Made by a program: the position numbers and the translations under genes. The notes beneath the pieces are model-generated. The model made no database searches, was not told the origin of the DNA, and saw only the letters and a list, made by a program, of their open reading frames with translations. Below are positions 229-62,699 of a stretch of 64,000 nt of DNA, in pieces. Numbering within the stretch: the first letter of the stretch is position 1; each line of letters begins with the position of its first letter. Origin of the DNA: Amoebophrya sp. A120 (Eukaryota; Protista; Dinoflagellata); contig CAJINV010000006.1 of the NCBI GenBank assembly GCA_905178155.1, positions 2,830,658-2,894,657 of the forward strand. The letters run 5' to 3'.

Positions 229-3200
229 GCGTGCGGAGTGATTTCCAGGTGTTCGGGAAGGACTTTCAAACCACAGTGGCGGAGGTGACGGCCGCGGGAG
301 GGGGTACAATTACCATCGGAACTACTGAAACAAATAAAGACCACAGCAATCAGAGCGGCAGTGCTGCCACGTCGAGGGGTAAAACAAATAGCAGCAGCGC
401 AGGAGGAGGTGCTTTGACCTGGAACATGCGGCTGACAATCGGGTGTTTGGAAATGCTCATGTACGTGTTGACAACGCTGTTGAAGTCAAAACTACGGTTC
501 GGCGTGAACCAGCTTTTGAAAAACGCGGTCAGTGGTGGGATAGGAGCGCCGGGGAGCACTATGATGATGATGTCTAATACAACAAGCCGAAGGGAGGTCA
601 TGAACCACGCGGGCCAACAGCAATATGGCGATGAATTCGAAATGCTAGAAGAGGAGTTGCTAGAAGATGTGACCAGCGCCGCTGAAATGAAAAACAAAAA
701 CCACCACAGAAAAAATCTCTCCCCCACGACCTCCCCCCCTGGCCGGAGTAGGAGCCCAGCTATAAAAATGCGAGCGCAGGGCAATAGTGGAATTGCCTCT
801 ACTCAGTTGGGCACCCTTACTCCGGGGAAAAAAGAGCTCCAGCCCCCGCCAGGCTTGCAGATTGAGAAACTCGCACTGCACGTTGGGGCGTCGAAGACGA
901 ACGAAGAGATTGAAATGTCGGAGAACCTTATCGCAAGGAAAAACTGTTTCACTGTAAACTTGTAATGCAGAAAATGCATCTTAGAAGTGTTTGTCTTGCT
1001 ACACATGCAAGACAATGGGTTTTAGCCGTGTTTTCCCTTAGGAACCTTGCATGGCAAATCTTTTCTGTCATACGGAACAAACTTGTGATGCAAAACTTGC
1101 AAAATCCTTACAGGGAAACACTTTTTTCGTGTGATAAGCCTGAATTTAGTGCGGAATTCCATGAACTTTCGGAACTCTTTCGACGGAGTGCATGTCCCAC
1201 CAGCGGAGGTATTAAATTCAACAAGCAATCCCAACTTCTTCCCTGCAGCACAACAAGACACTTCACTTCCCTTTTTTGAAGACCTCCGCTCTCCACCAGT
1301 CCAACACCGCGAAATGAACAAAACTGCAGCCACGATTACAGCCGTCACCAGCCCGCCGGGACAAACACAAACAAATTCCTACCGGCGGCAGTATGAGCAG
1401 AAACGGGGCGCGGCGCTGGCGAAGTTGAGTTATGGCTTGCTCAGACGATACAATCTCAAACGTTGCATATATAGGATCTGGAATTTGATGTCTTGCATGA
1501 ACAGCATCAGTACAATACAGAGACTTGGGCTTTTCGCAATACAAATTTCATCAGATTCTCGTGAGGTTTGGAGCTCCGAAACTTGTCATGCGCGCTCCTT
1601 TGGGTGTAGGCCAGATGTTGCGCATTTTGCAACACAAATTCCAGATTCTATTGTAACGTTTGAGATTTTAACACCTGAGCGGGTTATATGAGTCCAACAA
1701 GGGTTCTGAACCGCAACAGCCCGACTTCTCCGGGGAAGATTGAAATTACAGACGGAGACTTTGGCTACGGCAGGCCTAGTGCGGCGGCGAATGAAGGGGT
1801 TGTGGACGATGCGGATGAAATAATCGAAGAGGAATTTCTCATGGAGGAGAGCACACTTGAGCCAGAACTGCAGGCGAAATTCGCCGCGCTGCGAAATGCT
1901 GGGAACAACACAGTAACCAAGCCCGGCACAGCAACAGCATCAGGACCTGCAACCGTGGGCTCAGGTAGTTTAGGCAGAATTCAAATAAAACCACCGTCGC
2001 GGGAAAGTTCCACCGCTTCTGCAGCGGAAGTCGCGGAGCTGCTGGAAAAGGTAGCGGAGACGAATGAAGGAGTACTTTTAGAGGACAAAGAAACAGCAAC
2101 GGCGAACAAGGGCAAAGGTGGAACAGCATCAAATAAAACCAAATCCGGAACTACATCCTCAAGGGGTGGAATAGCAGCGTTGATAAACCCCTTCAAAGGT
2201 GGAAGTACATCAACCACGTCGAGTCGAAGTGCAACCGGTCTTTTATAAGCCGCTCAGGTGTTACCATCGCAAACGTTACAATAGAATCTGGAATTTGTGT
2301 TTCAAGAATTGCATCATCTAGCCAAGTCTCATAGGTTTGCGCATGACAAGTTTCGGCACCCAAAACCCCATTGATATCCGGCGAAATCTGTATTGCGAAA
2401 GGCGCAACTCTACATACGTTCCTCATGCTCTTCATGCAAGACAAAAGCCAGACTCTATTGTAACGTTTGGGATTGTAACGTTTGAGCAGGTCATATCTGA
2501 AGAATCCCTCGAAGCTGTTTGCCGCGTTACCGAGAAAAAGGAAATACGCCGACGTGCACAAAAAGAAGGAGGAATTGAAGGAAAAGAAGAAACAGCAAGA
2601 AGCGAATGCTAGTAGTAGTAACGCACCAGTAATATCTTCTTTGTCGAAGCGAGATCAAAATGAACTGGACGGTGGAGCAGGTCCGAACCACGCAGAAGGT
2701 GGCGACCAGCCCTCTGAAATTTCAGTGATCAATGGCGAGCGTGCGAGAAGCAGGGCGAGCACTGCTGGCGGGAATAGCAACACAAGTAGTGCGAGTTTCA
2801 TGTTCTATGGTGAGAAGCCAGAGGGTGACGCTAGCGCAATCCTCAGCGGGACGAACATGCACCACCACGGGAACACGAATAAGCGACGAGTTTTGTCCCC
2901 TGCACCCACCCGCGTCGGAGCGTTTGCCGTGTCGAATTTTTTATTGCAAAAGGAGAGGGAAAAGGTTGCGGGGGTCGTTCTCGCGGCAAAAAATGCCAGT
3001 GCTAGTAGTCCAGTAGGGAAGACGTCGAGGACGATGACGATCTCCGGTCAACGAGGGGATGAAATAAAGGGCGTTGTAAGTTCTTCCGCGTCAAATCAGG
3101 TTCAGGGTGAGAATGCGAAGCAGATCATGCGGAAATTTTGGCAGAAGTTTGACGCGGGTCAGGATTTGGCAGGGGAGGATGACGATGAAGAGGATGATCT

Positions 3201-3772
3201 TTCTCAAAAACCACTAAAGAACACAAGGACAACCGCACAGCCAGAACTTTCGCAACGTACAAAGAACCAGCAAAGGAGCGACGAGGCAAAGCAGCATAGT
3301 TCGTCGACAAAGCCGGAGCCGCCTAAAGTGGTTGCTCGGAAGCAGGACAGGGTAAAGACGCACACGGCAAGCGGTAGTACAACTCGCAGCGCTGATGAAA
3401 AAGGACGACCTGATGGAGGACCATCATCCTCCGCTGCTGGTGCTGTTGCCCACTTAGAAGTCGTTCCCCCAGCAGGAGCAGACTTCTTGTCGGACGAAGA
3501 TGAGGAGGATTTGTCTCAAGAGATTAGGTTCAAAAATCGGTTAGGATGGCGATATATCCTGTGCAAAAGTCGAAATTATCGCATCACAAATTTGCTCAGC
3601 ATTTTTACAAATGAAATTTGTAATGGAGATTTACCGTAAGGACAAGATTTGTAATGCATGACTGCAACAGTTACGTACGAGTGCGATGCTTTTGCAATGC
3701 ATACGGTACGACCACGCTTTTTCCGAGGGTGACGATGAGGAGATTGAAGTGGAGGACGAAATTGAGTTGTGA
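1..3772 (+). CDS. Host gene 1 (5' part outside window): low-complexity Ser/Thr/Gly/acidic protein of unknown function; exons approx. 229-928, 1137-1430, 1689-2243, 2496-3554, 3704-3772
   Basis: ORF-track pieces 180, 1131, 1688 and 2482 join in frame when each TAT..ATA element plus one 5-bp repeat is removed (ENL|NLVRNS, KLS|PTRV, TG|LKNPS, WR|YDHAFSEGDDEEIEVEDEIEL*). Stop TGA at 3770-3772. Confidence 0.8.
929..1136. mobile_element. Introner, TATC(gc)AAG(g/a)AAAAACTGT family
   Basis: TAT...ATA ends, flanks aacct/agcct. Relatives at 6331-6541 and 28998-29193; related ends at 7691, 9279, 11436, 29231, 30883, 33601, 60032, 62001. Confidence 0.85.
1431..1688. mobile_element. Introner, TATRACCYGCTCARRYGTTACAATCTCAAACG family
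   Basis: Perfect 5-bp TSD tgagt. Siblings at 2244-2495 (inverted), 11687-11960, 31651-31891, 55776-56031, 60480-60731. Confidence 0.9.
3555..3703. mobile_element. Introner, short (~150 bp) TATCCTGTGCAAAAGTATCG family
   Basis: Flanks cgata/cggta. Siblings at 6584-6735, 29926-30089, 31151-31309, 48588-48744, 57978-58126, 59488-59637, 61500-61659. Confidence 0.85.
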
Positions 3773-4605
3773 TGGAATGGTGATTTATTTCCTGGTGCGA
3801 ACCGCTTTTGAAGTTGAAGGTATCATATTCGACTTTCTTGATTGTAGTTTTTGTTTTGATTTGCCGGAACAAGTTTGGCAATTAGGTTTTCATTGCCAAG
3901 AAGACGACCTTGAAGTTATGTTTTCTTCATTTTGCGAGACCGAATAATGCCTTGACGCGAAGTTCATACGCTTTCATTTTCAAATTCAAAGTAAAAAAAC
4001 ATGAATTGCTTCGCGCGTCGCGAGCGCGACGAACAGTTGTTTTCAAACTCCAAGTGTGGAGCGTGTCTGTGCGCTGGGCCGGCTTCGTGTTCATGCAATT
4101 CAGCAGCTGGAGGCACTGCTGTAGCTGTTCCAGTCCGTTCTTTTCCTTTTGTGAATTAGAGAACATGGCAATTGTTCTGCTGGTGGTCCGTGTTTCTGTT
4201 GCTTAGCCGAGTCAAGTCCGGGCATTCATCTGAGGGCCGAGATTTGCGGGGGCAACTAGGTCCAGCGTTTGCCTGGGCGCGGTTAAAATCCATGGCGAGG
4301 CTCATCCTCCACGGTTTTGGCTCCGCGCCGTGGCGTCCGTGATCGGCGCGATTGGCCCGGCAGTTGCGTGGCGCCTCGGTGCGGCGCGGGTCCCGCTATG
4401 TTTCCCGGGCCTTGCTTCCTCTTGGGCCTGGGCGGTTTGATTCGCGGAAAAGCGAGGCGGCCGGACCTCGTGCCCCGCCCGCTTGTTGTCGCTAGCGTGT
4501 TGCTGTGCGGTGGCTCGCTGCCGCTGTGTCGGATTGCGTAGCGTATGCGCAAGCACAGCGCGCAGCTCTTGCGCTATTGGGCTTTCACAGTTCCCAGCCT
4601 GTCAC

Positions 4606-4733
4606 TCGGACGAAAAGCGAGGCCCCTTGTCCCTCGTTCGAACGAAAAACGAAAAAGCTTGTCCGCCGTTCGGACGAAAAACGAGACCCCTCGCCCGCCG
4701 TTCGGACGAAAGGCGAAACGCTTTGCATTCGGC
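4606..4733. repeat. Degenerate 32-bp tandem repeat (4 copies) within a GC-rich intergenic block
   Basis: tcggacgaaa(a) recurs at 4606, 4638 (variant tcgaacgaaaa), 4670 and 4702. Confidence 0.8.
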
Positions 4734-6072: not shown

Positions 6073-9000
6073 ATGGAGTTTGAGTTCCAGCAAGCCCGGC
6101 GAAGATCCTCATCTTCTACTGGGAGAGGACAAGAAAACCAACGAGACCTCCCGGATGAAGATCGTGAACAACATCGAAACCAGCAAGACAACTTCGGCGC
6201 AGGAGGAGGAGCTAGAAGTTCTTCCCGGCAAATAAACAAAAGTCCCAAAAAAAGGCGGAAAGAACACGATAGAGTGAAAGACCCCGCCATGTCGTCCACT
6301 GCTCGAAAGTACTATGCTAGAAGTACAGAATATCGTACGAAAAAACTGTTTCACTGTAAGGATTTTGCAGGTTTTGCATCACAAGTTTGTTTACACATGG
6401 CGCAAAAATTTGTCATGCGCACTTCCCAAGGGAAAACACCCTTAAAAATCCAATGCCTTGCATGTGTAGCAAGACAAATAGTTTTGTGTTCCATTCCATG
6501 CATCACAAGTTCAATCAGTGAAACAGTTTTCTCTTGCGATACGGAACCCATGCAGCAGGTGGACGTCGAGTCAGACGAGGACTTATCCTGTGCAAAAGCA
6601 TCGTACTCGTATTGCAATCACGCCTTACAAATCTTTCTCTTAAGGTAAATCCCCATTACAAATTTTATTTCTCATGCTGAGGAAATTTGTATATGCATTT
6701 ATACGAGCACGATACTTTTACTTTTGCAGTTCATAGGACTTCTACGGTCACAACTTCTCCCGTGCGGCGATACACGCTGCTAGTAGTTTTGGGGACAACA
6801 GTAATAGCTCATCTTATCAACAACAACAGCACAACCTGTCACAGCACGATTTTCGCCATCACCAGAAGCAGCTCCGCCGGGCGCAAACCGCCGGGCCGCG
6901 GCGGCCGGTGCATCAAAATATCAAAAGGAAAAATCCCCCCTCGTCCCCATATCGAAAAGGAAATCTGTGATGCTGGATTTGCGTACACAAATCAGATTTG
7001 TCTTGCAGTAGAGGACTGCAGGCAGATGCAAAGCCTGGAGAGGGGTCTGGTGGTGTAGGCGCCTGGCATGGTAGACGGCTGTCCTTTAGTCCTTACAGCA
7101 TTACAGATCGCCTGCGTAGCGTGGCAGAGAGCCTGGCTTTGCCTTCTCGCAAGACAGACAGGCTTTGTGGCCACAAATCTGCATCACAAATTTTCAAAAG
7201 GATGCCTTTTCAACATGGGGAGGGGGGATTATTCCTTGCTATACAAAATCCTCCGCCCCCACAGTTTCCTCCAGTCCCCGCACCCCCGGAATTGAACCCG
7301 AGAAACCGACTATGCATTGCAAATATGTGGGGGTATGGCAGGATGTAAACTTGTGATGCTGCATTTGCATACTTAAAAAAGTCTGTATTGCATGAACAGC
7401 AATAGAGGTTCACATTTTGCCGCGGCGAGAGGGTATTTCTCATGCGGCATAGGCGTCAGGAAGCCCTCGCAAAATCTGTGATGCTAGGGAATGCATCACA
7501 GACGTCAGGAATCATGCAAAACATGCTTGACAAACCTTGCACCCTTCCAGACGTCCAGAGATATTTGCATTGGATACCGACCCGCGAGACCGAATTTCTC
7601 CAGTTCGCAAGACTACCGGGCAAAGTTAAATTCCAGGTCGAACAGTAATTCTGGGGGAGGGGGAGGAAATAGTGAAAACAGAAGGAGAAGTATGCAAGGA
7701 AAAATAAACTGTGTAAGTGTATTGAATCTGTGATGCAAAAAATGCAAAGCAGTTACACTTGTCATGCCGGCCGACACCCATGAAGTCCTCTTTTCATGTG
7801 TGTTAGTGTTTTCACGTCCTAGCATTGCATGACAGGCTTTCATCTCTCTCGTGCAGAGCAAATTTGTATATGTTGGCACCGCAAGAGACCTACACCAACA
7901 CAGTTTTTTCCCTGGATAAGAAGTTCTCGTAGAAGCAGTCAGAATAATTATCACGTCTGGGACGACGGTAGGCACTGGACAGAAAATGACACGGATCCGG
8001 GTGGAGAAATAAAGGATCACGGTACGAACGGGATAAACAATGCTTCAAATAACGGCAGTAACGGTGGCGGCACAAACAACAACACAACAAATGGTGGAGC
8101 AGCAGCAGCTGCTGCAACTGGCGATCTTCACCAACAAAAGCAGAATCACCAAAATGGCAGCAATAACGGCAGTTCGGATAAAGACAACTCCAACCCTGTA
8201 TCTGGTGGCAATGATCCTCCAGATAACAACTCTTCCACCGCGATATCAAATGTAAAAATGTCTGGGTCTGGAATCTTGTGATGCTAAAATGTGCATGGTG
8301 AAAACGCTTCCGAATGCAGTTCGGCATGACAACTTCCCAAAACGCTTTCTCATAGGAAATCCGCATGAGAAGCTGCGTTTTTGCATTACAAAAGAGGCTG
8401 CGACTTTTCTTGTTTATGCAATACAGATTTTCTAGGTATGGAAAGCTAGCATTACAAGTTCCAACCTTCCAGACCCAGACACTTTTACAATCCATACGCG
8501 AAAGAAGGCGGTTCGCAAACCGGATCGCAGCCGGTCCCCTTGTATCAAATGTAAATATGTCTGGGTCTGGAAACTTGAGATGTAAGTCAGTCAATACCAG
8601 ACGCACTGTAATGCGCCGCCAAGCATGACAAGTTGCTTCGCGCTTCTGTGCTGCGTACTCACTCCGCATGAGAAACTGCGTTTTTGCATGACAGGTAAGC
8701 GGAGCTCTTCGCGGCCACGCAATACGGAGTTCAGAGACATGCCAGACTAGCATGACAAATCTCGCAATTTCCCAGACATCCAGGGATATTTGCACTTGAT
8801 ACCTTGGATGAGAGAACAGGAACGCGGGAAAGTGAGTCAGCAGCAGGAACAACTACACAGCAGCAGCCTATCAAAGTGAAAAAATACCCCACCCCATATT
8901 CAAAAGACAATTTGTGTTGCTGGATTTGCGCACACAAATGAGCTTTGTATTGCGCCAAGAGCTTGTCGGCATATTCTAAAGTCCATTTGGGTACTACGCA

Positions 9001-12000
9001 TCCGGCTAGCAGCGGAGCATGAGAAACAAGTCTGAAATAGGCGGAAACGCATGACAGACTCGCTGCGCAATGCGTCACATGGGAGTCGTTTGCTTTGTAC
9101 GCAAGACAAAGCTGATTTGTGGTCACAAATCAGCATCACAAATTCCCTTTTCGATATAAGGAGGGGGAGTTTTTCCTTACGATACAGCCGCCGCAAAGGC
9201 CCCAATCTTCCAAACTGTTCCGGTTCCTCCCCAATTTTAGCCGGCCAGGTTCCGCGAAAGTAAACCCCGCGCTAGAGGTATCGTGAGAACAAAGTGTTAC
9301 AGTTACACATTGTGTTCTTGCAGGAGCCGCAAGACAGACAGCTTTTGCCATGCAAGAAATGCTTGCGAACTTCATTTCGTATTCGTACGTGTTTTCCCTT
9401 GGGATCTCTGCATTGCAAGGTTTCTCTGCCACACAGAGAATAAGTATTTGTGTTGCTGAAGTTACAACAAATGTGTAACTGTAACACTTTTTTCTTGTGA
9501 TAAGAGGGGGTGGAACTACGAGTGAACGGTACGAATCTGCAGCAAAAGGGGGGCAGTAGTAGCTCCACCGCGAAAGGTGGATCACGTGGTACTTCTAGCG
9601 GGGTGAATGGACGAAAGGTGATCGATCTCACCACAGACGATGATGAAAACGGAAAAGAAGTCGAGGACGTCGTTGACCTGGGGGAGGATTTGATATCAAC
9701 AGCAAATTTCGACGGCCAGTACCAGTACAGATACAAACTCAACAAATTGTGCTTCTGTAAATGACAAAAGTTATCGTTATCTCCATGGAGCATGACTGCA
9801 ACCGGCATGCTTTAGGTCGACGTTGGGGAAATTTGTGATGCATTTATTTTTTACGTGAACAAGAACCACAACGTGTGCGGTAAATGTAAATTTGTATTGC
9901 ATAGGACGAGGAGGAGGACGAGGATGATATCATTTGTAAAAACGTCCTCACCCCATAGTTGTCGTGCAAATCTGCATGCTCAAAATATTTCTCATGCGGA
10001 AGCGGAACCTCATGACACGCATTTTCTAGTCGTGGTTTGTGATTTGTAATGCTGCAATCAGCACAATAGGCTAGATCTGTGATGCTTCTCCACAAGCTAA
10101 ACAGGATTACACTACGAGGCCAAACTTGTCATGCGCAACAGCCAAGCCTTGTGGATTTGTCTAGCAGATTTCCCATCTTGACTCTGGTGTGGGGACGTTT
10201 TTACAAATGATAGATGACCCGTCAAGATTAACTTCCCGCAAAGCGAGTAGCAAAGACAAAGATCCGAAATTCGCTTTCCGGAAAGCGGAATCGAGAATAT
10301 GCATTGCAAATATGTCTGGGTCTGGAAGAATGCGCGATTTGTCATGCTAGTCTGGCATGACTCTGCACTTTGTATTGCGTGGCCGCGAAGAGCTCCTTCT
10401 CCCTGTCATGCAAAAACGCCGTTTCTCATGCGGAATACGCAACTCAGAACCAACATGAAAAAAACTTGTCATGCTTGGCAGCGCATTGCAGTGAGCTGAC
10501 TATTCCCTTCCCTGCGTCGCAAGTTTCCAGACCCAGACATATTTGCAATGCACAGAGAATGGATTTGGACGATATCCTCCGCGGGGAGGAGAAGCGGAAA
10601 AAGCGAGATGCGTTTATCAAACGCAAATTATCGATCATCTGCGTCGTCGGGAAAATAAAAAATGCACACGAATTCTTCGATCCTGCTGAGCTTCGCATAA
10701 GATGAATATGCGGCTGTCTGTACGGCAGGAGAAAGCATGACAAGTTTATTTCTAATATTGCGAATTCAACCGTAAGAATACTATTAAATTTCGTGTGACA
10801 ATAAAGAACTGTCTTTCAAGCGCCAATCATGATGCCCTTGATCAGCAATACAGATCTCTGCCGCATGCGGAAATTTATTCGCATGACAAATCTAGACTAG
10901 ACCCGGATGTATTTGCATTTTTGCATAGCCTTGAAGATGGTACAGCGGGGGATCATATGGATTGCAAATATGTCTGGGTCTGGATGGATGCGAACTTGTG
11001 ATGCTACCTTTGGACTCTACATAAAACCTGTCTTGCATGAACAGCAAAAGAGGTGCAATTTGTGCTACGCGGAGAGGGCATTTCTCATGCGGTATGAACA
11101 TCAGAAGGCCCCCGCACCAGAATCTCTGATGCTAGGGTCAATGCATCACAGACCTCATGGGTCATGGAAAATCTGCATGACAAACTTCTGCATTCTTCCA
11201 GAGGACCCAGACATATTTACAATCCATAGATCAGGGAAGATGTAGAAGAAGAAATGGATGCGGACAGGACGGACGGGGTGGAAGGTATATGTACCTGCTG
11301 CTTCATTTTTTGTCATGCACAGAGCTGCATGAATAGCTGAATGCGGGAAACGAATTCTGCATGACAGATTTATCAATGCAAAAAAAAGAACTACAGACAT
11401 CGCCGAGCTGCACCGTGGCGGGACGTTAGAGTTCTTATCCAAGAAAAAAACTGTGTGAGTGTAGGTGTCATGGGGTGACAGCATGAGAAACTTGTTCTAC
11501 ATGACACAGAATCCTGTCATGCACAGCTAGCAACTGAAAACACGTATGAAAAGAGAGCATGATGGGTGGCCAGCATGACAAGTGTAACTGTGTAGCGCGC
11601 TTTGCATGACAGACTTACACTTACACATTTTTTTTCTTGCATAGTTCTCCAACGTGACCGACAAATTAGAAGGCGAAAGGACTCGGTATGGCCTGCTCAA
11701 GCGTGACAATCTCAAACGGTGCGAATAGAATCTGGATTTTGTCATCTTGCATGATGAGCATGACAGACTCACACAGCTGCGTTCCACTTTCTGCAATACA
11801 TCAAATTTCGACAGATAATTCTACTGCGGTTTGGGACCACTCCGAAACTTGTCATGCGCATCAATCCTGTGCGAGTACTCTAGATCATGCAGTTCTTGCA
11901 TCACAGATTCCCATATTCTATGGTAACCGATTTGAGATTGTAACACCTGAGCAGGTTACACGCGGTCGGGTTTGGATATCAATGCGATTATGATGCGGTC

Positions 12001-41040: not shown

Positions 41041-41393
41041 ATCGAGCCCTTTTGTATGTTGTACTTAGACTATATCGCGATCGGGTTTTTAATCTTGAAG
41101 TTAGTATTTTGGTAGTAAGGTTCTCGAGCATCAGAAGCCGCTCGCATTTATGCAGTGGCACGCTGATTCAGACACGCAGTCGAATCTTTGACACCAAGAA
41201 AATTGAATGATGGACAAGCAGTACACCACGATATGCAAACATCCTGCCCGCCCCATTGTAACGAAATTAAAACAATTTAGAAAGGAATGCTAGCTCCAAG
41301 GAGCGTACCTAAAACCAGGGCTATAGGGTATGGACGCAAGACGATAATGAACTAGATGAAGAGCAGAGCCACGCGCCTGATTAGAGGACACAT

Positions 41394-49695: not shown

Positions 49696-52600
49696 ATGCC
49701 GACCGACGACGATCCCGTTGCCGCGGTGGGGGTCAGTGACGTGAACCCGCAGATCTCCGGCAGTGGCAAGGCCTCTTCTAGCGGAGGTGGGAAGCATATG
49801 ACAGTGCACAACTCCCCCTCCCCCTCGTTTGTCATGCAAAATCCCAAATCCAGTCGCTGCCTTGTGGCACTGTTTGCATGACAAATTCCGGAAGCCCAAA
49901 CAATACTACATCAGGTACGGAGATTTGTCATGCATAGGCTCCATGTGCGCTGGGGCTGGTGTTTGTATTGCTGTTCATGCCATACAAATAAGGGGGAGGG
50001 GGAGTTGTGCACTCTTATAAAGGAGGTCGGCTTTCTGCTCCCCTCCAGCAGACCGGACACCCCGCAGACAGGACATATGGAACTGTCAGGATTGAAATTG
50101 ACAAAGTAGAAAAATTTGTGATGCATAAAACCGATTATACCAGTTGAAAGCCCAATTTCCAATTTGCGCATGACAAATTTCGACGTCATTGAAATCCAGT
50201 TTGTAATGCTGTTTAGCGAAAGAAGGCATGATCCTTTGTCATGCTCCTTTAGCAGCTCTATGCCAATAAACCCGAAACAGGCTTACAATCGGCCTCACTC
50301 GTAATCCCTGCAAGACAGTCACTTCGTGCCTTGCACTTTATGCATCACAGATTATTTCAACTTTGTCGATCTCGATCCTGACACACCCATAGGACACCCC
50401 GGAGCAGGTGGCCAGCAGCAGCCCCCACCACCCCAGCACAAGTATCACAAGGAAAAATCCCCCCTCCCCATATCAAACGGAAGTTTCTGATGCTGGATTT
50501 GCGTACACAAATCAGGTTTGTCTTGCAGTAGAGTACTGCAGGCATATGCCAAGCCTCAGTCGAGAGGTTTTGACGTAGGCGCCTAGCATGGCAAACGTGT
50601 ATTCTCTAAGCCCAACAGCATCACAAACCGCCTGCAAAATGCGGGGCGCTCTCTGGACTTGCCTTCTTGCAAGACAGACAGGATTTGAGGTCACAAATGC
50701 GCATCACAAATTTTCAGACGGATGCGTTTTCAATATGGGGAGGGGGGATTTTTCCTTACGATAACAAGCACAAGCTCCCGCCCGGAGCAGAGCCCTTGCC
50801 GAATTTAGAAGAAGCCGCGGAAGAACACTTTCCGCCACCACCGGCCGCAGTACCGCCGAGTTCAATATCAAATGCAAATATGTCTGGGTCTGGAAGATTG
50901 CAACTTGTCATGCTAAAAATGAAGCATGCAAAAATCTGTGTTGCATGATTACCAAAAGTCGTCCAGTTTTGACCAAGTAGGGAGGGAGTTTCTCATGCAG
51001 GATAGGCATGAGAGAGATCGCGCAGAATCTGTCATGCTAGGGCCTGCATTCCAGTCCTCACGGGTCATGGAAAAGCAGCATGACTTGACAAATCGCGCAT
51101 TCTTCCAGACCCAGACATTTTTGCATTTGATATTCAATAGAAGACCACGCGGCAAACGCAGCGAATGCGGGGTATGGCGTTCTCAACTGTTACACTCTCA
51201 ACTGTTACATGAATTCGTAATGCAAGACTAGCACAGGTGAGAGGGAGAACCTTGCGCATCTTACATTACAGGTTTCGTGCGGACGATTATAGTGCTGTTT
51301 AGCCCTCCGAGAATTTGTCATGCGCAGCAGCTCGATCGTTTGGCGGGTCATGGTCATTTTGCATAACAAATCATGTAACAGTTGAGAGTGTAACGTTTGA
51401 GAACACCATACGGGGGACGCCGGAGCTGCGGCTGCGGATGCGGCTGCGGCGCAGGCATCTGGTGCAGCGGAGCAAACGGGGAAGAAGAAGAAGGGTCTGT
51501 TTGGAGGTAATATAATCAATCAACTAGTTTTTGCTTTCAAATTTTTTGGGTGGAAATCACTATCACATGTATAGTATTATCATGATCATTATCTTGATGG
51601 GTCTACATCCACTTGACTTCTGGTGGACCAAATCGAATGCGGATGACAAAAAGTCGTCGTTTAACATCTGATGCACGACTGCAATCCACCTACATTGGCA
51701 GGTATCTTTGGCGGTTCCGGCAAAGACGACGTGACAAAGTTCGACCCGCCCGACCAGTCTCCGCAAAAGGTATCCGAGTGCGCAGTTTCATCCCGTCGCC
51801 CTCGCCTTTGTCTTCTTGCAAGAGAGCAATAGTTCTTGTACCAGGCCCTGCCTCTTGGCCGCAATAATTGCATGACAACTAGTACCGGAGATAATAATCC
51901 ACGACACAACCCGACAGCCCGTGCGTTGGATTTGTGATGCAGAAGCCACTAACTGCTTCCTTCCCATGGAGGTTATATGTAGTGAGGTCACCGAACGGTT
52001 CTAACCGGGGAGTTTTTTTGCCATATACCCTGAAAAACGACCGGCAGTTTTTAAGCGGCCGGAGGGCTTTTTGCACAAAAAAAAATTTCAAGTACCAAGC
52101 GGCCGGAGCTGTGCCAACAAACAAGCCCGGTCGAAAACTATCGATTCGCACTGGATAAAACGACGCAGGGGAGCCGGCAAAAGGGGCGCCCTTCTGAGTG
52201 AGCGCCGCCTTGGTTTCTGGCGATTTGGGGCGCCCAAAAAGGGGCGCGCAAAAAACGCGCCAAAAATCAGAACAGCGAGACAGCATGGCACGGCCGCGAT
52301 TTCGGAGGATTTTGGGCGGCCGCGAAAGCGGCCGCCTTTTCTCCGGTTTCAGATCCTGGGAAGCTTTGCAAAAAGCGCCGGCGTGAAAAATAAAAACGCC
52401 AAAAAGAAAAAGCGCCCCAGACGCGCAAAGCCAATCCGCATGCTATGGGCCCGATTTTTCTTCGCTTTTTGGGCGCCCCCCGTGGCACCCGGATCGGCCC
52501 CATAGCATGGGGGCTGGCTTTCGGAAAGGAATTTCGGGAATTTGCCAAAATTTGCGACGTTTCCCAAGTGGCCGCCATACCGTGCGGCATAACGTTACTC

Positions 52601-55600
52601 ACGGCGGTATGGCGAGCCCATAAAAGGCAAAGCCGCGGCCAAGGCTGCGGTCGGCAAAAAAACGCCCACGACCTCACTACCCCCGCCCCGGCGGCTATAT
52701 TTGGTAATTTCTGTTGCGATGTAGTACAACGCACACAACTTTGCAATAAAGAAGGGAGACCACGCGAGGGGTAGAAGTTGTGCACTCTCGCCATAGAAGA
52801 AGCCAGGGGAATTGGACTATCACATGACCGGCATGGAGAAAGATAAAGGAAAAAAAGCGATGTCTCTGTCGGCGCGGATTTTGTATCAACTGTAAATCGT
52901 ATGTCTGGGTCTGGAAGTAGAGTCTGAATCCGTACTGCGCAATTCATCGACAAATGAAATTCCAAATAAAGAACCTGTGATGCATGAGCCGGATCTTCAG
53001 CGCTGCTGCTGCATGGTGTGTCATGCAAAAGGAGCGCGGTTTGGGTATCTTCTCATGCTAATTTACGCATGGCGCACGCTTGTTGAAAAACTTGATCATG
53101 CTTGGCTAGGTACTGCAGGAGTTTCTTTGTTTCTCATTCGGTTTTGACAAGCATTAGACCCAGATAACATATTTGCCGTTTGATATTTTGGAGAGGCAAA
53201 ACACAACGAAGGGGAAAAAGGGACCGAAATTTCAACGTAAGTCCTTACTTCGAGAGTAGTGTATTTGTGATGCAGCTGTTCCAAATGACAAAGTGAAAGT
53301 GAAGCGCGACGATTTGTGATGCAGATTTTAAATGACAATGTATGTTGACAAAATAATGTTACTTCAGTTGTGGACAAAGACGCTGCGCAGGTATCAAATG
53401 CAAATACTTATGTCTGGATCTGGAACTTTGTGTTGCTGACACTGGCATGCGCATGGAAGATTGGCCGCTTGATGTCATGTGCAACAGCATGACAAGTCTT
53501 TTTCGGCTTCATACGAATGCATTGATTCGTAATATGTGGAAGCATTTTTACATCAAGCGCGACAAAGAATACTACCACTCCTCTCGATGCGTGACAGATC
53601 TTGTTGTCCTTCAAATCTTGCACCACAAACCCAGACCCAGACTAGAAGCTTGCAATGCATAGCAGGAATTCCGGGACAACCCAAGTGACGATGAGTTTGA
53701 GCTTATCCTGAGTAAAAACGTGGTTCCAACCCCAGAGTTGTCATGCGGATTTGCAATTACAGGAACGCTTGTAAAAATGCGCAGCCCCATGGAGCAGGCA
53801 TTTGCCATCGTGTTTTCGAATTTGTGATGCTTCTGTAAAACTAAATATCATGCGTGACTCCCAAACCACTCTCTGGATCATTGGTACTGCTACTTACGTT
53901 CCCAACTTGACTCTGGCGTGTCGCCCCCGTTTTTGCCCAGGATAGAGCTTGCGGTTTTTGGCGAGATGGGGGGCGACGCCGGGTTGGCGGCGAAACCCAA
54001 GCCGCCGAAGCCGGGTCAGGGGAGCCTGGTCGGGGCGCGCAACCAGCGAGTATGCATTGCAAATATGTCTGTGTCTTGGAAGTTGCGAGATTTGTCATGC
54101 TAGTCTGGCATGGCTCTGAACTCTGTGTTGCGTCACCGCAAAGCGCTCCTCTTGCCTGTCATGCAAAAACGCAATTTCTCATGGGGAGTACGCAACTCAG
54201 AACCACGGAAAAAGTTGTCATGCTTGGCAGCGCATTACAGTGTGCTCCCTAGTATTCCCTTCCTTGCATCACACGTTTCCAGACCCAGACGTATTTGCAT
54301 TTGATAGCGAGGGAAGCTGAACACCTCCTGGTACGACCAAGAGCCGGGGGTCTACATGAACGACTTGGGGGATGTCGTCGTTGACCAATCAGCAACGGAT
54401 ATCATTTATGCATAATGCAAATATCCACCCTGGGTGTCTGGATTTGTGATGCGAGACCTGAAGAACTAAAATAGAATAAATCTGTAATGCATGAATACGA
54501 TTGGCCATTTTTTTTGTCGTGCTGGAAGCCAGTTCTTTGTCATGCGTTTTATTTTTACGAATGAATTATCTGCAAGAAGCCTCGCAAAATTTATTCTCAT
54601 GCTTTGATGCCGTACTACATGGAGCCACTACGGCGCAATGCGAATGCAAGTATCAGCAAAACAAATTTTGAGACATCCGGGGACAGTATTTGTATTTGAT
54701 ATCATTTCTGACACGGATTTCGTGGAGAACGAAAACTCGGCCACGGCGCTGGCGACTACTGCAAGGAAAAATCCCCCCTCCCCATATCGAAAACGAAATT
54801 TGTGATGCTGTATTTGAGTACACAAATCGTAATCGACTTGTAAATTGTATTGCTACAAGGCAAAGAGGCGCAGTTGTGGCCTCGTTTGCAGGCAATTTGT
54901 CATGCTGTTTCCCACTTCCAGCTGCCTCCTGTCATGCTGATGATGCAAGGCTTTCCCACGCAGCCTAGCACTACAGTCCGCATCTTTTCCCTTCTAGCAT
55001 GAGAAAGCTGATTTGTGACCACAAATCTGCATCACAGATTTCCGTTTTGATATGGGGAAGGGGGATTTTTCTTCTTGATAGCGACGGGGGGTAACACCGA
55101 GGAGCAGCGGGCGTTCAACGCGAGCAGAAGGAAGAACATATGAACTGCAAATATGTCTGGGTCTGGAAGAATGCAACTTGTGATGCGGCATTTGGATTCC
55201 AAAAAAAACTGTATTGCATGAGCAGCAAAGGGAGTGTGATTTTTGCTACGCGAAGAGGCCGTTTGTCATGCGGAATAGGCATCAAGATGCCAACATCACA
55301 AAATCTGTGATGCTAGGGCATGCATCACAGACATCATGGCTCATGCAAAACGTGCATCACAAGTCTCAGAATCTTCCAGACCCAGACATATTTGCAATGC
55401 ATAAAACATGGGGCGGGGCAAGTCGACGGGGGACATCGAGGCGTTCAAACGAAGGATAGCAGATATCAAATGCAAATATGTCTGGGTCTGGGAGAATGCA
55501 AGGCTTGTCATGCTTGTCTGGCATGACCCATGATGCTTGTAATGCATGAACCACCAGCATCACAGATTTTTGGAAGGCTTCCTGATGCCCTTTCTGCATG

Positions 55601-58600
55601 ACAAATGCCCTCCTCGCGTAGCACAAATGTGGCTTCTCTTGCTGGTCATGCAATACAGATTTTTTTAGAATCCAAAGTTAGCATCACAAGTTCCAACCTT
55701 CCAGACATTGTTGCATTTGATAGCAGAAACCGAAGCGAAGAAGGAGGCCGAGGAGCAGAAAAGACTGCAGGATGCTATGACCTGCTCAAACGTTACAATC
55801 TCAAACGTTACAATAGAATATGGAAATCTGTGATGCAGGAGTGCATGATCTAGCCAATTCTCATAGGATTGCGCATGACAAGTCCCGGAGCACCAAACCC
55901 CACTACAATCTGGCGAAATTTGTATTGCAGAAACTGGAACGCTCTGTGACTCAGTCATGCTCATCATGCAAGACAAATCCCAGACTCTATTCATTGTGAC
56001 GTTTGAGATTGTAACACCTGAGCGGGTTATAGATGCACAGCCGAAATACGTTCCGTGGCAATTGTACAAGCAACGGAAAAGAGCGGACTACCTATCACAA
56101 GGAAAAATCCCCCCTCCCCATATCGAAAAGGAACGCCTCAAAAAGTTTGTGATGCTGATTTGTGACCACAAATCGTGTCTGTCTTGCAAGAAAGCAACGG
56201 CATCCGCCCCGCCCCATTATGCAGGCGGTTTGTAATGCTGTTGGCCCTACAGCCTAGGCGTTCCCCATGCTAAGTGCCTAGGCCAAAACCTCTGCGCACT
56301 GGCATGATATCGGCCTGCAGTGCCCTACTGCAAGACAAATCTGATTTGTGTATGCAAATCCAGCATCAGAGACTTCGTTTTGATATGGGGAGGGGGGACT
56401 TTTCACTTCGATACTACCGCTCTTTCGTCGGGGGTTTTTCGGGGGCAAACAACTATCCCACAGAAAAAAACAGGCAGGGCAGATTTGTAATGCAAAAATA
56501 AATACACAGAAAACAAAGTCTGCGCTGCGTATCGTATCCTACAAAAGCAGCATGCTAAGGGCTTGCCCATGACAGATTTTTCTGTCAATTATTTTCTGCA
56601 TTACAATAAATGGGCCCTGCCTGCTTTTTTCTGTGGGATAACAACATGGATCTGCAGATGGAGCGGTTGAAGAACAAGGAAGATGACCTGAATTTTGAAG
56701 AAGTGCTATCCTGTGTAAAAACGTCCTCACACCAGCGTCAAGATGGGGAATCTGCTAGACAAATCAACCAGCTTTGGTTGTTTGGCATGACAAGTGTGTC
56801 CGCGTAGTGTAATCCTGTTTTTTTAGCTAGTTAAGAAACATCACAGATGTAGCATATCATGCAGATTCTAGACTCACAAATCCCAAAACACGAATAGAAA
56901 ATGCTTCGCATAGGGCTCCGCATGAGAAACTTTTTTGGCATGCGGAATTGCATGACAACTATGGGGTGGGGACGTTTTTGCTCAGGATAAGTCCGCCAGA
57001 TGATTTCGAAAATCGGGGGGAAAAAGGATCGGTTTGTCATGCGCTTCGTCGCAGACGAAGCGGAAAAAGCGAAGTTCAAGGGGAAACAGGTACTTCATCG
57101 AATAGTTTTTCCTGTTCGTGAAGAAGAAACAAGTTATTGCTGCTCGTGTATGATCTGCATATGCTTTCTTTCCAACAGTTGTCAGTCATGCATTGGAGCT
57201 CCAATTACTTACTTATCAATCTGAAAAAAACATTTTGATTGAAAAAAACCGAACTACTTTACCAGGGCGCGTGGGTCGGCGGCTGGAAGTTCCAGGGCAT
57301 GGCGGGGTTCCTCGTGACAATGTATCAAAATGAAAAGTTCCCCTCCCCATAATATCAAAACGCAAGTCTGTCTCTGTGATGCGGGATTTGTGTACACAAA
57401 TCATTTTGTCATGCTAGAAGGGAAAAGATGCGGACTGTAGTGCTGTGTGGCGTGGGAAAGCATTGCATCTTCAGCATGACAGGAGGCAGCTGGAAGGGGG
57501 AAACAGCATGCCAAATTGCCTGCAAACGAGGCCACAACTGCGCCTTTTGGCCATCTAGCAATACAAGTCGACTTGTGTACTCAAATACAGCATCACACAT
57601 TTCGTCTTCGATATGGGGAGGGGGGATTTTTCCTCATGATTCCATGCAGATCTTCTTCATCGGTTACGCAACAGACTTATGCATTGCAAATATGTCCGGG
57701 TCTGGAAGAGTGCAAGTTTGTCATGCACGTTTTATTGCGTGAGGCATGATGTCTGTGATGTCTGTCCTAGCATCAGAGATTTATTTCTGAGGGCTTCATC
57801 TTGATGCCGATCCCGCATGACAAATGCTCTGTCCGCGTACCAAAAGCGGCTGTCTTCTCGTGCTGCTCACGCTATACAGATTTTTTCAGAATCCAAACGC
57901 AGCATCACAAGTTGCTTTCTTCCAGACCCAGATCGATATTTGCATTTGATAAGACTACATCAGTTACGAAGACCCGGTATCCTGTGCAAAAGTATCGTAC
58001 TCGTATAAATGCAAGTCTTGCATCACAAATTTTTTTCTCAAGGTAAATCCGCATGACAAATTTTATTTCTCATGCTGAGGAAATTTGTAATGCATTTATA
58101 CGAGTACGATACTTTTGCAGTTCATACCCGGTTTCCACGAGAATGTTGTGGGCGCTACTGGACGTGTATGAGATGAGTGCACAGCTCCCCCTCCCCCTCA
58201 TTTGTATAGCATGAACAGCAATACAAGCGTCAGGAATAATACAGGTTTTGCATGACATTGACAAATCCGCGCCGGATTGTAGTGCTGTTTGCGCTGCCAG
58301 AATCTGTCATGCAAAAAGTGCCAATAGCAAAAGGTCGTGCATTCGGTACTACTTTGCATGACAAATAAGGGGGGAGCGGGCGTTGTGCACTGTCATAGTG
58401 TGGGGGTGGTGCTGCCGTTCTTTATCTACGAGTTTTACCAACGGTTTAATGCGATCGGGTAAGTATGAAAGTTGCATGTGATGATCTTCACCGGTAAAAA
58501 TGCTCGCAGTGCAGCTGGTGCTGTATCAGACGCAAAGGCAACATTCGCTGATTCATACTGTCTCGCTTCGGGTGTCGTTTTCGTTTGTCCCATGCAGAGA

Positions 58601-61600
58601 AAAAGACTTCATCTTATCAAAACTATCAACCATCAAATATAAATATACCAGTTTCGCCTACTTTGACTCTTACCTGCACGACTTCATTTTCCTCCTGGTC
58701 GGCATCATCGAAGCCTCTTATCCCCTATCAAATACAAATATTTCTGGATGCCTGGAAGATCCTCGCAACACTTGTCATGCAGATTTTCCATGACTCCCGC
58801 ACTGCTCCTGGGATCTGGCATGCGGGACCTTGCGTGACAGGTTCATCTGCGAGGTCGCTATGATCATGCCTATTCTGCATGAGAAGCTCTCTCTTTCTCT
58901 CGACTTAGGTACTAAAAGTTGACATCTTTATTTGGTAGTCAGGCATCAATACAGATTTTTACACGAAGATCCAAACATAGCATGACAAGTTGCAAAAATC
59001 TTTCAGCCCTCTCCAGGGATATTTGCAGTCGATATCCCCTCTGGGTCGGTGGTGAAGCGCTGAAAATGACGAAGATCATCTATCAAAAGGAGAAATTATC
59101 CCCCCTCCCCATATGGAAAACGAAATTTGTGATGCTGTATTTGAGTACACAAATCGACTTGTATTGCTTGAAGGTCAGGAGACGCAGTTGTGGCGAGGGC
59201 CTCGTTTGCAGGCAATTTGTGATGCTGTTCGCCACTTCCAGCTGCCTGCTGTCATGCCGAAGATGCAAGGCTTTGTTCCCACGCCACCCAGTACTACAGT
59301 CCGCATCTTTTCCCTTCTAGCATGACAAAATGACTTGTGTACAAAAATCCCGCATCACAGACTTCCACGTTGATATGGCGAGGGGGGAATTTTCATTCTG
59401 ATATCGTCCAGTTGGGCAGAGTGGTGAACTTGCTTCGATTCAAGGACGTGGTAGCGCAGTTTCCGAAAATAAAGGCGATCGTGGACATATCCTGTACAAA
59501 AGTATCTGATACTCGTATTGCAGTCGTGCATTACAAATCTTTCTCTTAAGGTAAATCAGCATTACAGATTTTATCTCTCATGCTGAGGAAATTTGTAATG
59601 CATTTATACGAGTGCGATAGTACTTTTGCAATTCATAAGACAAGGGGACGCGGGCGTTCGATTTCCTCACCGTGCTGAAAGCGGCGATGTGGTAAGGACT
59701 TGTTTTTGCAAGTGCAGCTGCATCACAGACCCATCTGCTTATCCTGTTCATAGCATCACAAATTCCAAAACACAATTGAAAATGTCTACCTTGGGTATGC
59801 GCATCACAAATGTCCTTGTCATTGCAAATCTGCATGACAACTCTGGGGTGGGAACGTTTTTCCTCAGGATACATCGTTTTTTGCATGATCGCATCTTGAC
59901 ACAGTCTTTATTTTCTCCCGTGCTGGACACGACACAGACACACCGTACATGACAAACAACTTCTCCAAATACTATGTTCATATCTTGAAACAGGTGTCTG
60001 CTTCTGATCACGCTGATGACCTACATGTGGATATCACAAGAAAAAAGTGTTACAGTTACACATTTGTAGTGAATTCAGCATCACAAATTTGCCTCGCATG
60101 ACGGAGGAAAGAACTTGTAATGCAGAGATCATAACGCAAAACACACACCAAACAGACTCGCAAGCATTTTGCGCATAACAGCGGTCGCCTGTCTTGCATG
60201 CTTTGCACCACAATGCGTAGTAACAAACACTTTTTTCTTTGCATTGTGGACGCTGCTGATCACAAGCACGTTGAACCAAGATGTTATCCACAGTAAATTT
60301 CCCGTACACGTACAAATGCGGTCTCTGCATGACAAAACTTGGCTTCGATCCTAGTTTAGCATGACAGGTTTTACGCTCCAAATTGGTGAGATTTGTGATG
60401 CATGTTGTACATGTACGGGAAATTTGTATTGCATAGATGTCGAAGTGTCTTTGGAATACAAGAAAATGTCGGGAATAGATATAACCCGCTCAGATGTTAC
60501 AATCTCAAACGTTACAATAGAGTCTGAGATTTGTCTTGCATGTTGAGCATGACAACCTCGCAGAGCGTTCCACTTTCTGCAATACAAATTTCGCCAGATT
60601 GTAGTGGGGTTTGGGGCTCTGGAACTTGTCATGCGCAATCCCATGAGAGTTGGCTAGATCATGCACTCTTGCATCACAGTTTTCCATATTCTATTGTAAC
60701 GTTTGAGATTGTAACACCTGAGCGGGTTATAATAGACATTCGCGAATATTTCGGCCACGTCGTCTGGGGCTTCAACACGTTTCTCGGCTTGATGTCGATG
60801 GAGCATGCGGTGCTCGACCGAATGGCGCGAGCGTGTGCAGAGGCGCACGGAAACGGGATTCTGATAATTTTTCTACTGTATTGGCTGTTTTTTTTATTGA
60901 ACTTATTTTTGTCTTACTTATGGATGCGGAAAACCGAAAACGCGCCTTGCTTTCTTTCAGGCTGACTTTGTCATGCCAAAAATGAAGATGCATGGGTCAG
61001 TACATTCACGGTGTCAACAATATTAACACGACAAAAAAACTAAAACACGAAAAGGTTTATCGCCTTTGCCCGGTTCGGGATGCTGAACGTGCTAGTTGCG
61101 CAAATCGTGACGAAGGCCATCATCACTTCGCAGGAGCAGCGCGAGTACTCGGATGAGGTGATGGACAAGGAGCATCAAATCGCGTTGGCCAAGCTCGTAT
61201 CAAGTGCAAATATGTCTGGGTCTGGAAAGTTGGAACTTGTGATGCTGGATTTGGATTCCAAAAAAATCTGTATTGCATGACTAGCACACGGGGAGGGCGT
61301 TTCTCATGCGGAATAAGCATCAGGATCAGGAAGCCTTCTAAAAATCTGGGATGCTAGGGCATGCATCACAGGCGTCATTGGTCATGCAAAATATGCATTA
61401 CAAACCTGGCAATCTTCCAGACCCAGACATATTTGCATTTCATAGCTCGGAGCTATTTTTCGCGCTCTGGACGCAGACGAATCGGGGACGATCAGCAGGT
61501 ATGAATTGCAAAAGTATCGCACTTACTAGTAGTAATTAGACATTACACATTTCCTCAGCATTAGAAATATGAATTTCTTATGCGGATTTGCCTTAAGAAA

Positions 61601-62652
61601 AAGATTTGTAATGCCTGAATGCGATTTTTACTACGAGTGCGATACTTTTGCGGAGCATAGCAGGACGGAATTACTGGAGGTGTGCGAACTGGAGCAAGTG
61701 AAATTACAACTGCGAGTATGAAGTGCACAACTCCCCCTCCCCCTCATTTGTATAGCATGAATGGGACGAATACAAGCGCCAGCGAGAATGCATGTTTTGC
61801 ATGACAAATTTGCACAGGATCATTATAGCGCTAGTTGAGCTGCCCGAACTTGTCATGCAAACAGTGCTAAGCGGCACAGCCTCGATTCGGCGTTTGGCAT
61901 GACAAGTGAGGGGGACGAAGGGGGAGTGATGCACATTCATAGCGAGTCGCACAGATCGACTACCCCGATATCGTGGAGCTATTCGACGTCCTCGGGTCAT
62001 TATCCAAGGAAAAAACTGTGTAAGTGTAATTTTCTTGGAGGAATAGCATCACAAGTTTGCTCTGCATGACACGGAAAACCTGTCATGCGTAGCTAGTACG
62101 TGAAGACACGTACGAAAAGAGCCTCTGATGCACATCCAGCATGACAAGTGTAACAGTTTTGCACTTTCTGCATCACAGACCTACACTCACATAGTTTTTG
62201 TCTTGCATAGGCATCTCTAGTCGAAGGCGGAGAACCGGAATTAGCGGTGGAGGAGTTTATCGGCGCTTGCATGCGACTATGAGATGATGAGAGCACAAGA
62301 ACCTCCTATTTCCCTCATTTCAAGGAGGGCACCATGAGTACCAGGAATAGAAACACCGCTTAGCTACATGGACCTTGTGCAGCATGACAAGTTCTTGTAC
62401 TTCCTGCGCCGTTTGATGATGTCCGGGATTTATTGTCATGCAAACTGCGCCAAATGAGTTATTATTATACAGCAACTGGATTTGGCACTTTGCATGACAT
62501 CAAATGAGGGCCGCCGTGGGGGAAAGTTGTGCAATCTGATAGCGACTCAAGGGCGAGGCGAAGTCGAAGGATTCGTTTATCGTGCAGTTGTCGGTCATTC
62601 AGGCGACGGAGAAAATCGAATTTCTCGGGAAGACCACGGAGAGATGCAAGAG
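49696..62652 (+). CDS. Host gene 4: second single-domain 6-TM cation channel with EF-hands (3' end probably beyond window); 33 introner introns plus 6 GT-AG introns
   Basis: S1 FQGMAGFLVTMQIFFIGYATD, S2 LDVGVVLPFFIYEFYQRF, S3 HDFIFLLVGIIE, S4 LKMTKIIQLGRVVNLLRFK, S5 AMWCLLLITLMTYMWTLLIT, pore YFGHVVWGFNTFLGLMSMEHAVLDRMAR, S6 FLLFIAFARFGMLNVLVAQIV, EF-hand FRALDADESGTISRTE, then EEFIGACMRLKGEAKSKD. GT-AG introns at 51507-51701, 53237-53367, 57090-57265, 58459-58651, 59692-59993, 60878-61054. Confidence 0.85.
51979..52700 (+). mobile_element. Helitron2/Helentron-like non-autonomous element inside introner 51771-52795
   Basis: 11-bp IR gtagtgaggtc (51979-51989) / gacctcactac (52670-52680), followed by hairpin ccgcc-cc-ggcgg about 20 bp before the apparent end; tatat on both flanks. 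Confidence 0.6.
56454..56640. mobile_element. Introner, singleton family TATCCCACAGAAAAAA.CAGGCAGGG
   Basis: Long near-perfect TIR, TSD acaac, frame restored (GANN|MDLQ). Confidence 0.88.
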
Positions 62653-62699
62653 GTGTTCTTGGAATCATGATTTTTTGTTATACTACGTTGTATCAAGTT

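What the first reader, a model, noticed from the sequence alone, without database searches (positions are those of the whole stretch)
929..62541. One internal motif (GCAWNACA / TGTNWTGC) is shared by all otherwise unrelated introner families
Seen: about 10 families with different TIRs and bodies all carry repeated tgtcatgc, tgtgatgc, tgtaatgc, tgtattgc, tgtcttgc or tctcatgc and their reverse complements, usually preceded by aatt/aact/aatc, several times per element in both orientations. By eye the motif is rare in exons, intergenic DNA and retroelements. The ends also share a TAT-N4-6-G-N-AAAA skeleton. Inference: a common recognition code, either transposase binding sites or a strand-symmetric intron-definition signal or set of RNA stems.
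Basis: partly seen in the sequence, partly recalled or inferred. Interest (0 to 1): 0.8.

Follow-up and report, generated by a model that had tools for sequence, protein, structure and literature searches.

The report
Paired DNA code inside jumping introns
Many otherwise unrelated families of jumping introns in what is likely a marine parasitic dinoflagellate share one short DNA word set in pairs 31-33 bases apart, likely the landing site of a single, still unfound enzyme that copies them all, and possibly also a tag that helps the cell find its introns.

Summary
The motif is real. TGTNWTGC occurs 272 times in 75 TAT…ATA elements (12 expected) and at background in exons, intergenic DNA and retroelements. 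The elements have Amoebophrya A120-type ends, 5-bp target duplications, lie in both orientations, and are cut from RNA-type contigs as element + 5 nt. Families do not align once motif and ends are masked. It is conserved threefold above its surroundings, is blind to transcript direction and thins out in old copies. RNA-stem tests give no support. Best reading: a double-stranded-DNA binding site for one trans-acting, likely integrase-like transposase; none was found here. Unexplained: GT-AG introns without family homology also carry the site (14 vs 1 expected), which keeps a host intron-marking role open. The introners and end skeleton are published; the internal site and its spacing were not found in the papers searched.

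The parts
929..62541 (.). 76 TAT…ATA introner elements (149-325 bp; one interrupted) in four + strand genes; 5-bp target duplication 5/5 in 54, 4/5 in 18, fewer in 4
   Evidence: list; the duplication score was part of the detection
50906..50944 (+). Example tandem pair, cores at 50906 and 50937 (31 bp apart), 41 and 72 bp from the left end of element 50866-51132
6966..7188 (.). Example with a pair at each end: 6966+/6999+ (33 bp) and 7149-/7181- (32 bp) in element 6919-7243
9928..10212 (+). Element with three pairs all on one strand (33/63, 118/151, 200/231): its motif copies cannot pair with each other as RNA
   Evidence: subfamily map
57978..58126 (.). Short ~150-bp family in which polarity is reversed (- sites first, + sites last; 9 of 9 copies)
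2243..2499 (+). Intron with uniquely placed cut: starts 1 nt before TAT, ends 4 nt after ATA of element 2244-2495
   Evidence: table 8: contig pieces end at 2242 and resume at 2500; the two 5-bp copies differ at positions 4 and 5
9693..9907 (+). Old element 9694-9903 with no duplication left and no tandem pair, still cut at -1/+4
   Evidence: table 5c
11285..11396 (+). GT-AG intron with two near-consensus sites; shares 39 bp (82%) with GT-AG intron 30325-30495
12413..13313 (+). Two GT-AG introns (12413-12563, 13196-13313) skipped in RNA-type contigs, two sites each; the pair in 13196-13313 is 32 bp apart
53237..53367 (+). GT-AG intron with two consensus sites 49 bp apart
59692..59993 (+). GT-AG intron holding the remnant of an introner (172 bp at 86% to a pooled element) with two tandem pairs
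13793..28948 (.). Introner split by a 15-kb nested insertion of non-LTR retroelements; 5/5 duplication outside, about 20-bp duplication inside that holds one motif copy

Best explanation
The motif is a conserved site of about 13 bp, set in same-strand pairs 31-33 bp apart, that is likely bound on double-stranded DNA by one trans-acting transposase, predicted to be integrase-like, which would mobilise all these non-autonomous families. Shown: the site, its spacing, its conservation, 5-bp duplications, TAT…ATA ends, insertion in both orientations, and removal of element + 5 nt from RNA-type contigs. Inferred: two protomers bind the pair on one face of the helix (three turns) while the TAT and G-N-AAAA positions are read at the cut site; anything between these marks is free to drift, which would explain how one enzyme yields many unrelated-looking families. 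Splicing would be a separate step, guided by the symmetric ends and the terminal hairpin, cutting 1 nt before TAT and 4 nt after ATA.
For: Pairs at 31-33 bp in 12 of 20 groups vs 4.9+-1.4 (0 of 1000 randomisations); replicated in 17 of 24 groups vs 7.9+-1.5 among 337 other elements, with 28-30 bp (5 groups) and 34-36 bp (3) not enriched. Site distance from the element end is periodic near 32 bp (R 0.33 vs 95% null 0.18). Within 16 subfamilies (266 of 419 elements) fixed motif positions differ at 0.053 vs 0.170 elsewhere; variants shared by several copies are depleted 3.8-fold, private ones only 1.9-fold, as expected if selection acts mainly at copying. A tandem pair is in 97% of the 75 youngest and 35% of the 20 most isolated elements, and an element without a pair is still spliced (9694-9903). 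No dependence on transcript direction (0.30 vs 0.33 mismatches per site, p=0.25). [quoted passage not shown] IS21 needs two direct repeats per end and makes 5-bp duplications (PMC10122671).
Against: No transposase was found: 0 hits in 103 of 331 ORFs from related loci and 11 window ORFs; no long ORF-bearing TIR element. Farhat et al. found no transposase in A120. Polarity to the nearest end is not universal: reversed in one family, mixed in three. Helical phasing beyond the 31-33 bp pair is not significant (R 0.09 vs null 0.10). GT-AG introns with no TIR and no family homology keep 14 sites vs 1.0 expected, which a transposition-only role does not predict unless they come from unsampled families. 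Private variants are still depleted 1.9-fold.
Confidence: 0.55

Rival explanations
1. A host (or domesticated) DNA-binding protein reads the site on double-stranded DNA and marks introns co-transcriptionally, standing in for the U1 snRNA that was not detected; elements carry it because only marked inserts are tolerated. It may be the same protein as the transposase.
For: GT-AG introns without family homology: 14 sites vs 1.0, 9 near-perfect vs 0.2, in 1,969 bp. Only 1 of 419 elements has no site. Strand symmetry fits a DNA-level mark. U1 not detected in A25/A120 (PMC7789003). Private variants depleted 1.9-fold.
Against: 4 of 12 such GT-AG introns have no strong site; density and pairing fall with age at a rate compatible with neutral decay; two motif-bearing GT-AG introns resemble each other and one holds an introner remnant, so descent from mobile copies is possible.
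Confidence: 0.25
2. Motif copies pair with their reverse complements in the pre-mRNA and build the stems needed for splicing.
For: 388 of 1052 copies pair in register with an opposite copy in predicted folds; convergent dyads 14-16 bp apart are common in two families and were modestly enriched in the second set (weighted p=0.01).
Against: 31 of 223 elements carry one orientation only; sense and antisense folds are equal (p=0.31); only 7 of 30 dyads are perfectly complementary; G·U equals A·C in the arms (137:131); dyads not enriched across window groups (5 vs 3.6); pairing would not need one fixed sequence in all families.
Confidence: 0.08
3. A single-stranded RNA-binding protein reads one orientation of the motif as an intronic splicing enhancer.
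For: Slight excess of one orientation on transcripts (554:498, p=0.09).
Against: Conservation does not depend on reading direction (p=0.25); one-orientation-only elements of both kinds lie in the same genes.
Confidence: 0.05
4. The motif is a passive relic of one ancestor or a product of mutation bias, with no present function.
For: Some singletons are distant members of larger families, and C-rich arms give slightly raised scores between three families (median 20); deep common origin cannot be excluded.
Against: Identity at motif positions 0.84-0.94 vs 0.50-0.68 elsewhere within six families; threefold lower divergence; sharp spacing rule; 22-fold above dinucleotide shuffles.
Confidence: 0.05

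Closest known systems
Amoebophrya A120 introner elements (Farhat et al. 2021, PMC7789003)
   Same: Inverted repeats starting TAT + 7 variable nt + at least 3 A, 3-5 nt direct repeats, non-canonical borders, about 240 nt, many families.
   Different: No internal shared site, spacing rule or fixed -1/+4 cut appears in the passages, section and supplement text read; the paper argues against general transposase mobilisation. Figures S19-S25 could not be seen.
A120 introner family 38 (Gozashti et al. 2025, PMC12130899)
   Same: [quoted passage not shown]
IS3EU/GingerRoot and Ginger2/TDD integrase-like DNA transposons (PMC10045372, PMC6839031, PMC2836005)
   Same: TA..TA termini (IS3EU/GingerRoot) or 4-5 bp duplications (Ginger2/TDD); little target preference.
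   Different: IS3EU/GingerRoot make 6-bp duplications, Ginger2 starts TGTNR; these elements combine TA..TA with 5 bp and encode nothing.
Repeated transposase sites of IS21, Tn7 and Mu (PMC10122671, PMC9308760)
   Same: Several weakly conserved internal sites whose spacing matters; IS21 makes 5-bp duplications.
   Different: There the sites begin at the terminus and face the end; here the first core lies mostly 33-56 bp inside, polarity varies by family, and the element is also an intron.
Euglena nonconventional introns (PMC12501133)
   Same: Cut at fixed offsets from paired marks near both ends, asymmetric 5' vs 3' spacing, no GT-AG.
   Different: Signature there is N3CDG…CHGN5-6; here TAT…ATA with offsets -1/+4 and an internal paired site.

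Membership tests
Amoebophrya A120-type introner | Inverted repeat starts TAT, 7 variable nt, then at least 3 A | tested here: met
   End logos for 223 oriented elements; detection was seeded on such ends
Amoebophrya A120-type introner | 3-5 nt direct repeat at the borders | tested here: met
   5 bp: 72 of 76 with at least 4/5; the duplication does not extend (flanking-base match 65 of 278, chance level)
Amoebophrya A120-type introner | Removed from RNA without GT-AG borders | tested here: met
   10 of 10 listed element joints skip length + 5; five modelled spliced lengths equal contig spans; the runs' RNA status is the tool's guess
Amoebophrya A120-type introner | Host organism is Amoebophrya | not tested
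   Inferred from the end signature only; no marker-gene tree made
Ginger2/TDD | TGTNR termini | tested here: not met
   TAT at 216 of 223 5' ends
Ginger2/TDD | 4-5 bp duplication | tested here: met
IS3EU/GingerRoot | TA..TA termini | tested here: met
IS3EU/GingerRoot | 6-bp duplication | tested here: not met
   0 of 278 with a 6-bp duplication at these ends
Integrase-like DDE transposons (any) | Cognate DDE transposase in an autonomous element | tested here: inconclusive
   None in window or 103 ORFs of related loci; no genome held
Repeated transposase-site arrays (IS21/Tn7/Mu-like) | Several internal sites at a fixed spacing | tested here: met
Repeated transposase-site arrays (IS21/Tn7/Mu-like) | Sites oriented uniformly to the nearest end | tested here: not met
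   Holds for two large families and most singletons, reversed or mixed in four
Repeated transposase-site arrays (IS21/Tn7/Mu-like) | Bound by the transposase | not testable with these tools
   needs binding assay
Euglena nonconventional intron | N3CDG…CHGN5-6 signature | tested here: not met
   End logos show TAT…ATA at -1/+4

The most novel reading that the evidence does not exclude
One DNA-binding protein, a transposase or its domesticated copy, reads the paired site on chromatin both to copy introners and to flag introns for the splicing machinery in a lineage where U1 snRNA is undetected: intron definition written in double-stranded DNA and extended to ordinary GT-AG introns.
Probability: 0.2. 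Interest if true: 0.92.

Novelty: new variant of a known kind. Interest (0 to 1): 0.62.

Why it matters
How A120-type introners move without a known transposase, and how tens of thousands of non-GT-AG introns are cut out with U1 undetected, are open questions stated in PMC7789003. A single 13-bp site with a 31-33 bp pairing rule gives a bait for pulling out the protein, a filter for finding the autonomous element, and a minimal-element prediction; the -1/+4 cut gives a precise splice rule to test. It also suggests that many catalogued families are one system.

Tried and rejected
No whole genome is held, so no genome-wide transposase search was possible; the records behind the loci are not searchable. 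TIR pattern in viral contigs: 0 matches. No RNA holder was listed as such; raw-read run X8 laid 2 reads and is uninformative. First idea of a 4-bp duplication plus one base: rejected, it is a 5-bp duplication. A universal palindromic dyad (recombinase-like core, 7-8 bp spacer): not enriched across window groups (5 vs 3.6), only modest in the second set (9 vs 6.1 groups, p=0.06). General 10.5-bp lattice: not significant once the 29-35 bp peak is removed. Universal inward polarity: rejected. 5' vs 3' end asymmetry on transcripts: none. Complementarity at arm positions 4-8: own 0.615 vs cross 0.618, none; small own excess at 9-30 may come from detection by TIR score. Target-site preference: none clear. 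One candidate element (32611-32722) was dropped because it broke the reading frame; eight weak first-pass calls were dropped, one of them (12915-13077) restored on RNA evidence and one (9694-9903) likewise. Earlier scan findings: three look-ups, nothing.
Full report
What the window is. Four + strand genes are interrupted by 76 elements that begin TAT and end ATA, 149-325 bp long apart from one split by a 15-kb insertion. 72 of 76 have a 5-bp flanking duplication with at most one mismatch (the duplication was part of the detection score). The ends read TAT-S-N4-G-N-AAAWR, matching the A120 signature in Farhat et al. 2021 (PMC7789003; abstract, passages, section 16 and supplement text read; figures not visible). 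The organism is therefore likely an Amoebophrya; this was not tested with marker genes. No genome is held.

They are introns. Contigs of runs X2 and X4 (RNA by the tool's guess) skip exactly element + 5 nt at 10 of 10 listed element joints, while contigs of run X5 run straight through elements (52682-54107). Removing every element by one rule opens long + strand frames, and five modelled spliced lengths equal the contig spans to the base (2586, 2116, 2216, 2591, 1064; the first two overlap, and one GT-AG acceptor, 52799, was chosen to fit an X2 length). These spans cover 56 elements. Where the two 5-bp copies differ, the cut is unique twice: 1 nt before TAT and 4 nt after ATA (2244-2495 and 9694-9903), and the other informative joints are compatible. 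All six multi-copy clusters occur in both orientations to the gene (15:10, 6:6, 4:5, 4:4, 2:2, 3:1).

The observation. TGTNWTGC occurs 272 times in 18,520 bp of elements against 12.2 in shuffles, and at background in exons, intergenic DNA and retroelements. The fuller site is about RRAYTTGTVATGC. With sites and 16 nt at each end masked (54% of bases left), median scores between the seven large groups are 12-20 against a null mean of 15 and maximum of 25, while within groups they are 20-85. A few singletons are distant members of larger groups. So the site is not carried along by alignable bodies, though a very old common origin is not excluded.

The spacing rule. Same-strand pairs 31-33 bp apart occur in 12 of 20 family groups against 4.9+-1.4 when positions are randomised (0 of 1000). 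As a second set I fetched 162 loci with one family's TIR pattern (all listed contigs share one assembly prefix, and 181 of 337 elements found belong to that family). The motif runs at 15.4 per kb there, and pairs at 31-33 bp occur in 17 of 24 groups against 7.9+-1.5 (0 of 200), with 28-30 and 34-36 bp not enriched. A weaker 83-85 bp spacing is significant only in the weighted count. Against a simple picture: no general 10.5-bp phasing remains without the main peak, and polarity to the nearest end is reversed or mixed in four families.

Selection. In 16 subfamilies (266 of 419 pooled elements) fixed motif positions differ from the majority at 491/9303 = 0.053, other non-CpG interior positions at 4797/28249 = 0.170. 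Variants seen in several copies are depleted 3.8-fold, single-copy variants 1.9-fold (single-copy variants include unsampled internal branches). Site density falls from 2.2 to 1.2 per 100 bp, and tandem pairs from 97% of 75 to 35% of 20 elements, from the youngest to the most isolated class. An old element with neither pair nor duplication is still spliced. This pattern points to selection at the copying step.

DNA or RNA. In 223 elements with a transcript strand (75 window, 148 of 332 others), arm mismatches are 137 G·U to 131 A·C; sense and antisense folds are equal (p=0.31); the terminal stem is predicted in 97% and 98%; 388 of 1052 motif copies pair with an opposite copy and 31 elements have one orientation only. 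Site conservation does not depend on reading direction (p=0.25). A caveat: lineages that pass through both orientations would blunt wobble tests. Overall the site behaves as a double-stranded DNA signal, while the hairpin from the arms is available for splicing in either orientation.

Mechanism. Most likely (0.55) a single trans-acting transposase binds the pair, three helical turns apart, and cuts at TAT…ATA with a 5-bp stagger; binding and the enzyme are inferred. TA..TA ends and 5-bp duplications sit among integrase-like elements: IS3EU/GingerRoot have TA..TA with 6 bp, Ginger2/TDD 4-5 bp with TGT (passages of PMC10045372, PMC6839031, PMC2836005), so these elements are members of neither. 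Gozashti et al. 2025 list A120 family 38 as 'Ginger, 5-bp TSD, TA/TA termini' with LTR-element homology (passages; supplement file 8, rows 1-40 of 58 A120 rows seen). Repeated sites with required spacing are known for IS21 and Tn7 (passages of PMC10122671, PMC9308760). No transposase was found in 103 of 331 ORFs of at least 170 aa from the loci (chosen by length and complexity) or 11 window ORFs.

What does not fit. Twelve GT-AG introns, after leaving out one with an introner remnant and a GC-rich insert, hold 14 sites against 1.0 expected, 9 of them near-perfect against 0.2; 8 of the 12 have a strong site. They show no homology to the 419 pooled elements beyond the site. Either they descend from unsampled mobile families (two share 39 bp at 82%) or the host keeps the site. 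That is the novel case (0.2).

Novelty. The introners, end skeleton and duplications are known. Searches and the texts above showed no internal shared site or spacing rule; Roy et al. 2023 (Curr Biol) was not read, figures of the supplements were not visible, and subscription papers are outside the library. The Euglena comparison rests on an abstract (PMC12501133) and review passages (PMC11282704); PMC12005148 passages show the elements are confined to part of the genus.

Noticed in passing
L009:9466-10720, L065:3862-4492, L032:632-1465: Three introners carry nested insertions whose junction falls at the same base of the motif (before CRTGACA); L009 and L065 inserts are one family (70% over 249 bp) with duplications starting there, L032 ends in a (CAT)n tail running into the motif. 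Possibly retroelements that target the site; n is small.
   Followed up: partly
window 13793-28948: An introner split by 15 kb of nested non-LTR retroelements (APE-RT); removing the whole span keeps the host frame, and RNA-type contig X4-23 is long enough to continue past it, but a joint across it was not shown.
   Followed up: partly
window 37191-45945: ORFs that look by eye like a DIRS-type element (tyrosine recombinase-like, gag-like, RT/RNase H-like); no Pfam hit, only a weak match to Tre recombinase (E 0.84).
   Followed up: partly
window 11285-11396 and 30325-30495: Two GT-AG introns of one gene share 39 bp at 82% around a motif copy: a possible GT-AG introner family.
   Followed up: partly
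element end positions 4-8: Left and right ends carry interchangeable 5-nt variants that do not covary, giving an internal loop next to the 3-bp terminal stem.
   Followed up: partly
window 6073-34700 and 49696-62760: Both spliced genes look by eye like ion-channel proteins with EF-hand-like C-termini; not searched.
   Followed up: no
window 4000-5700, 41400-42700, 51985-52700, 62750-64000: GC-rich non-coding blocks without the motif; the 52-kb one sits in a GT-AG intron and has very high summed depth in run X5, so it is likely a repeat.
   Followed up: no
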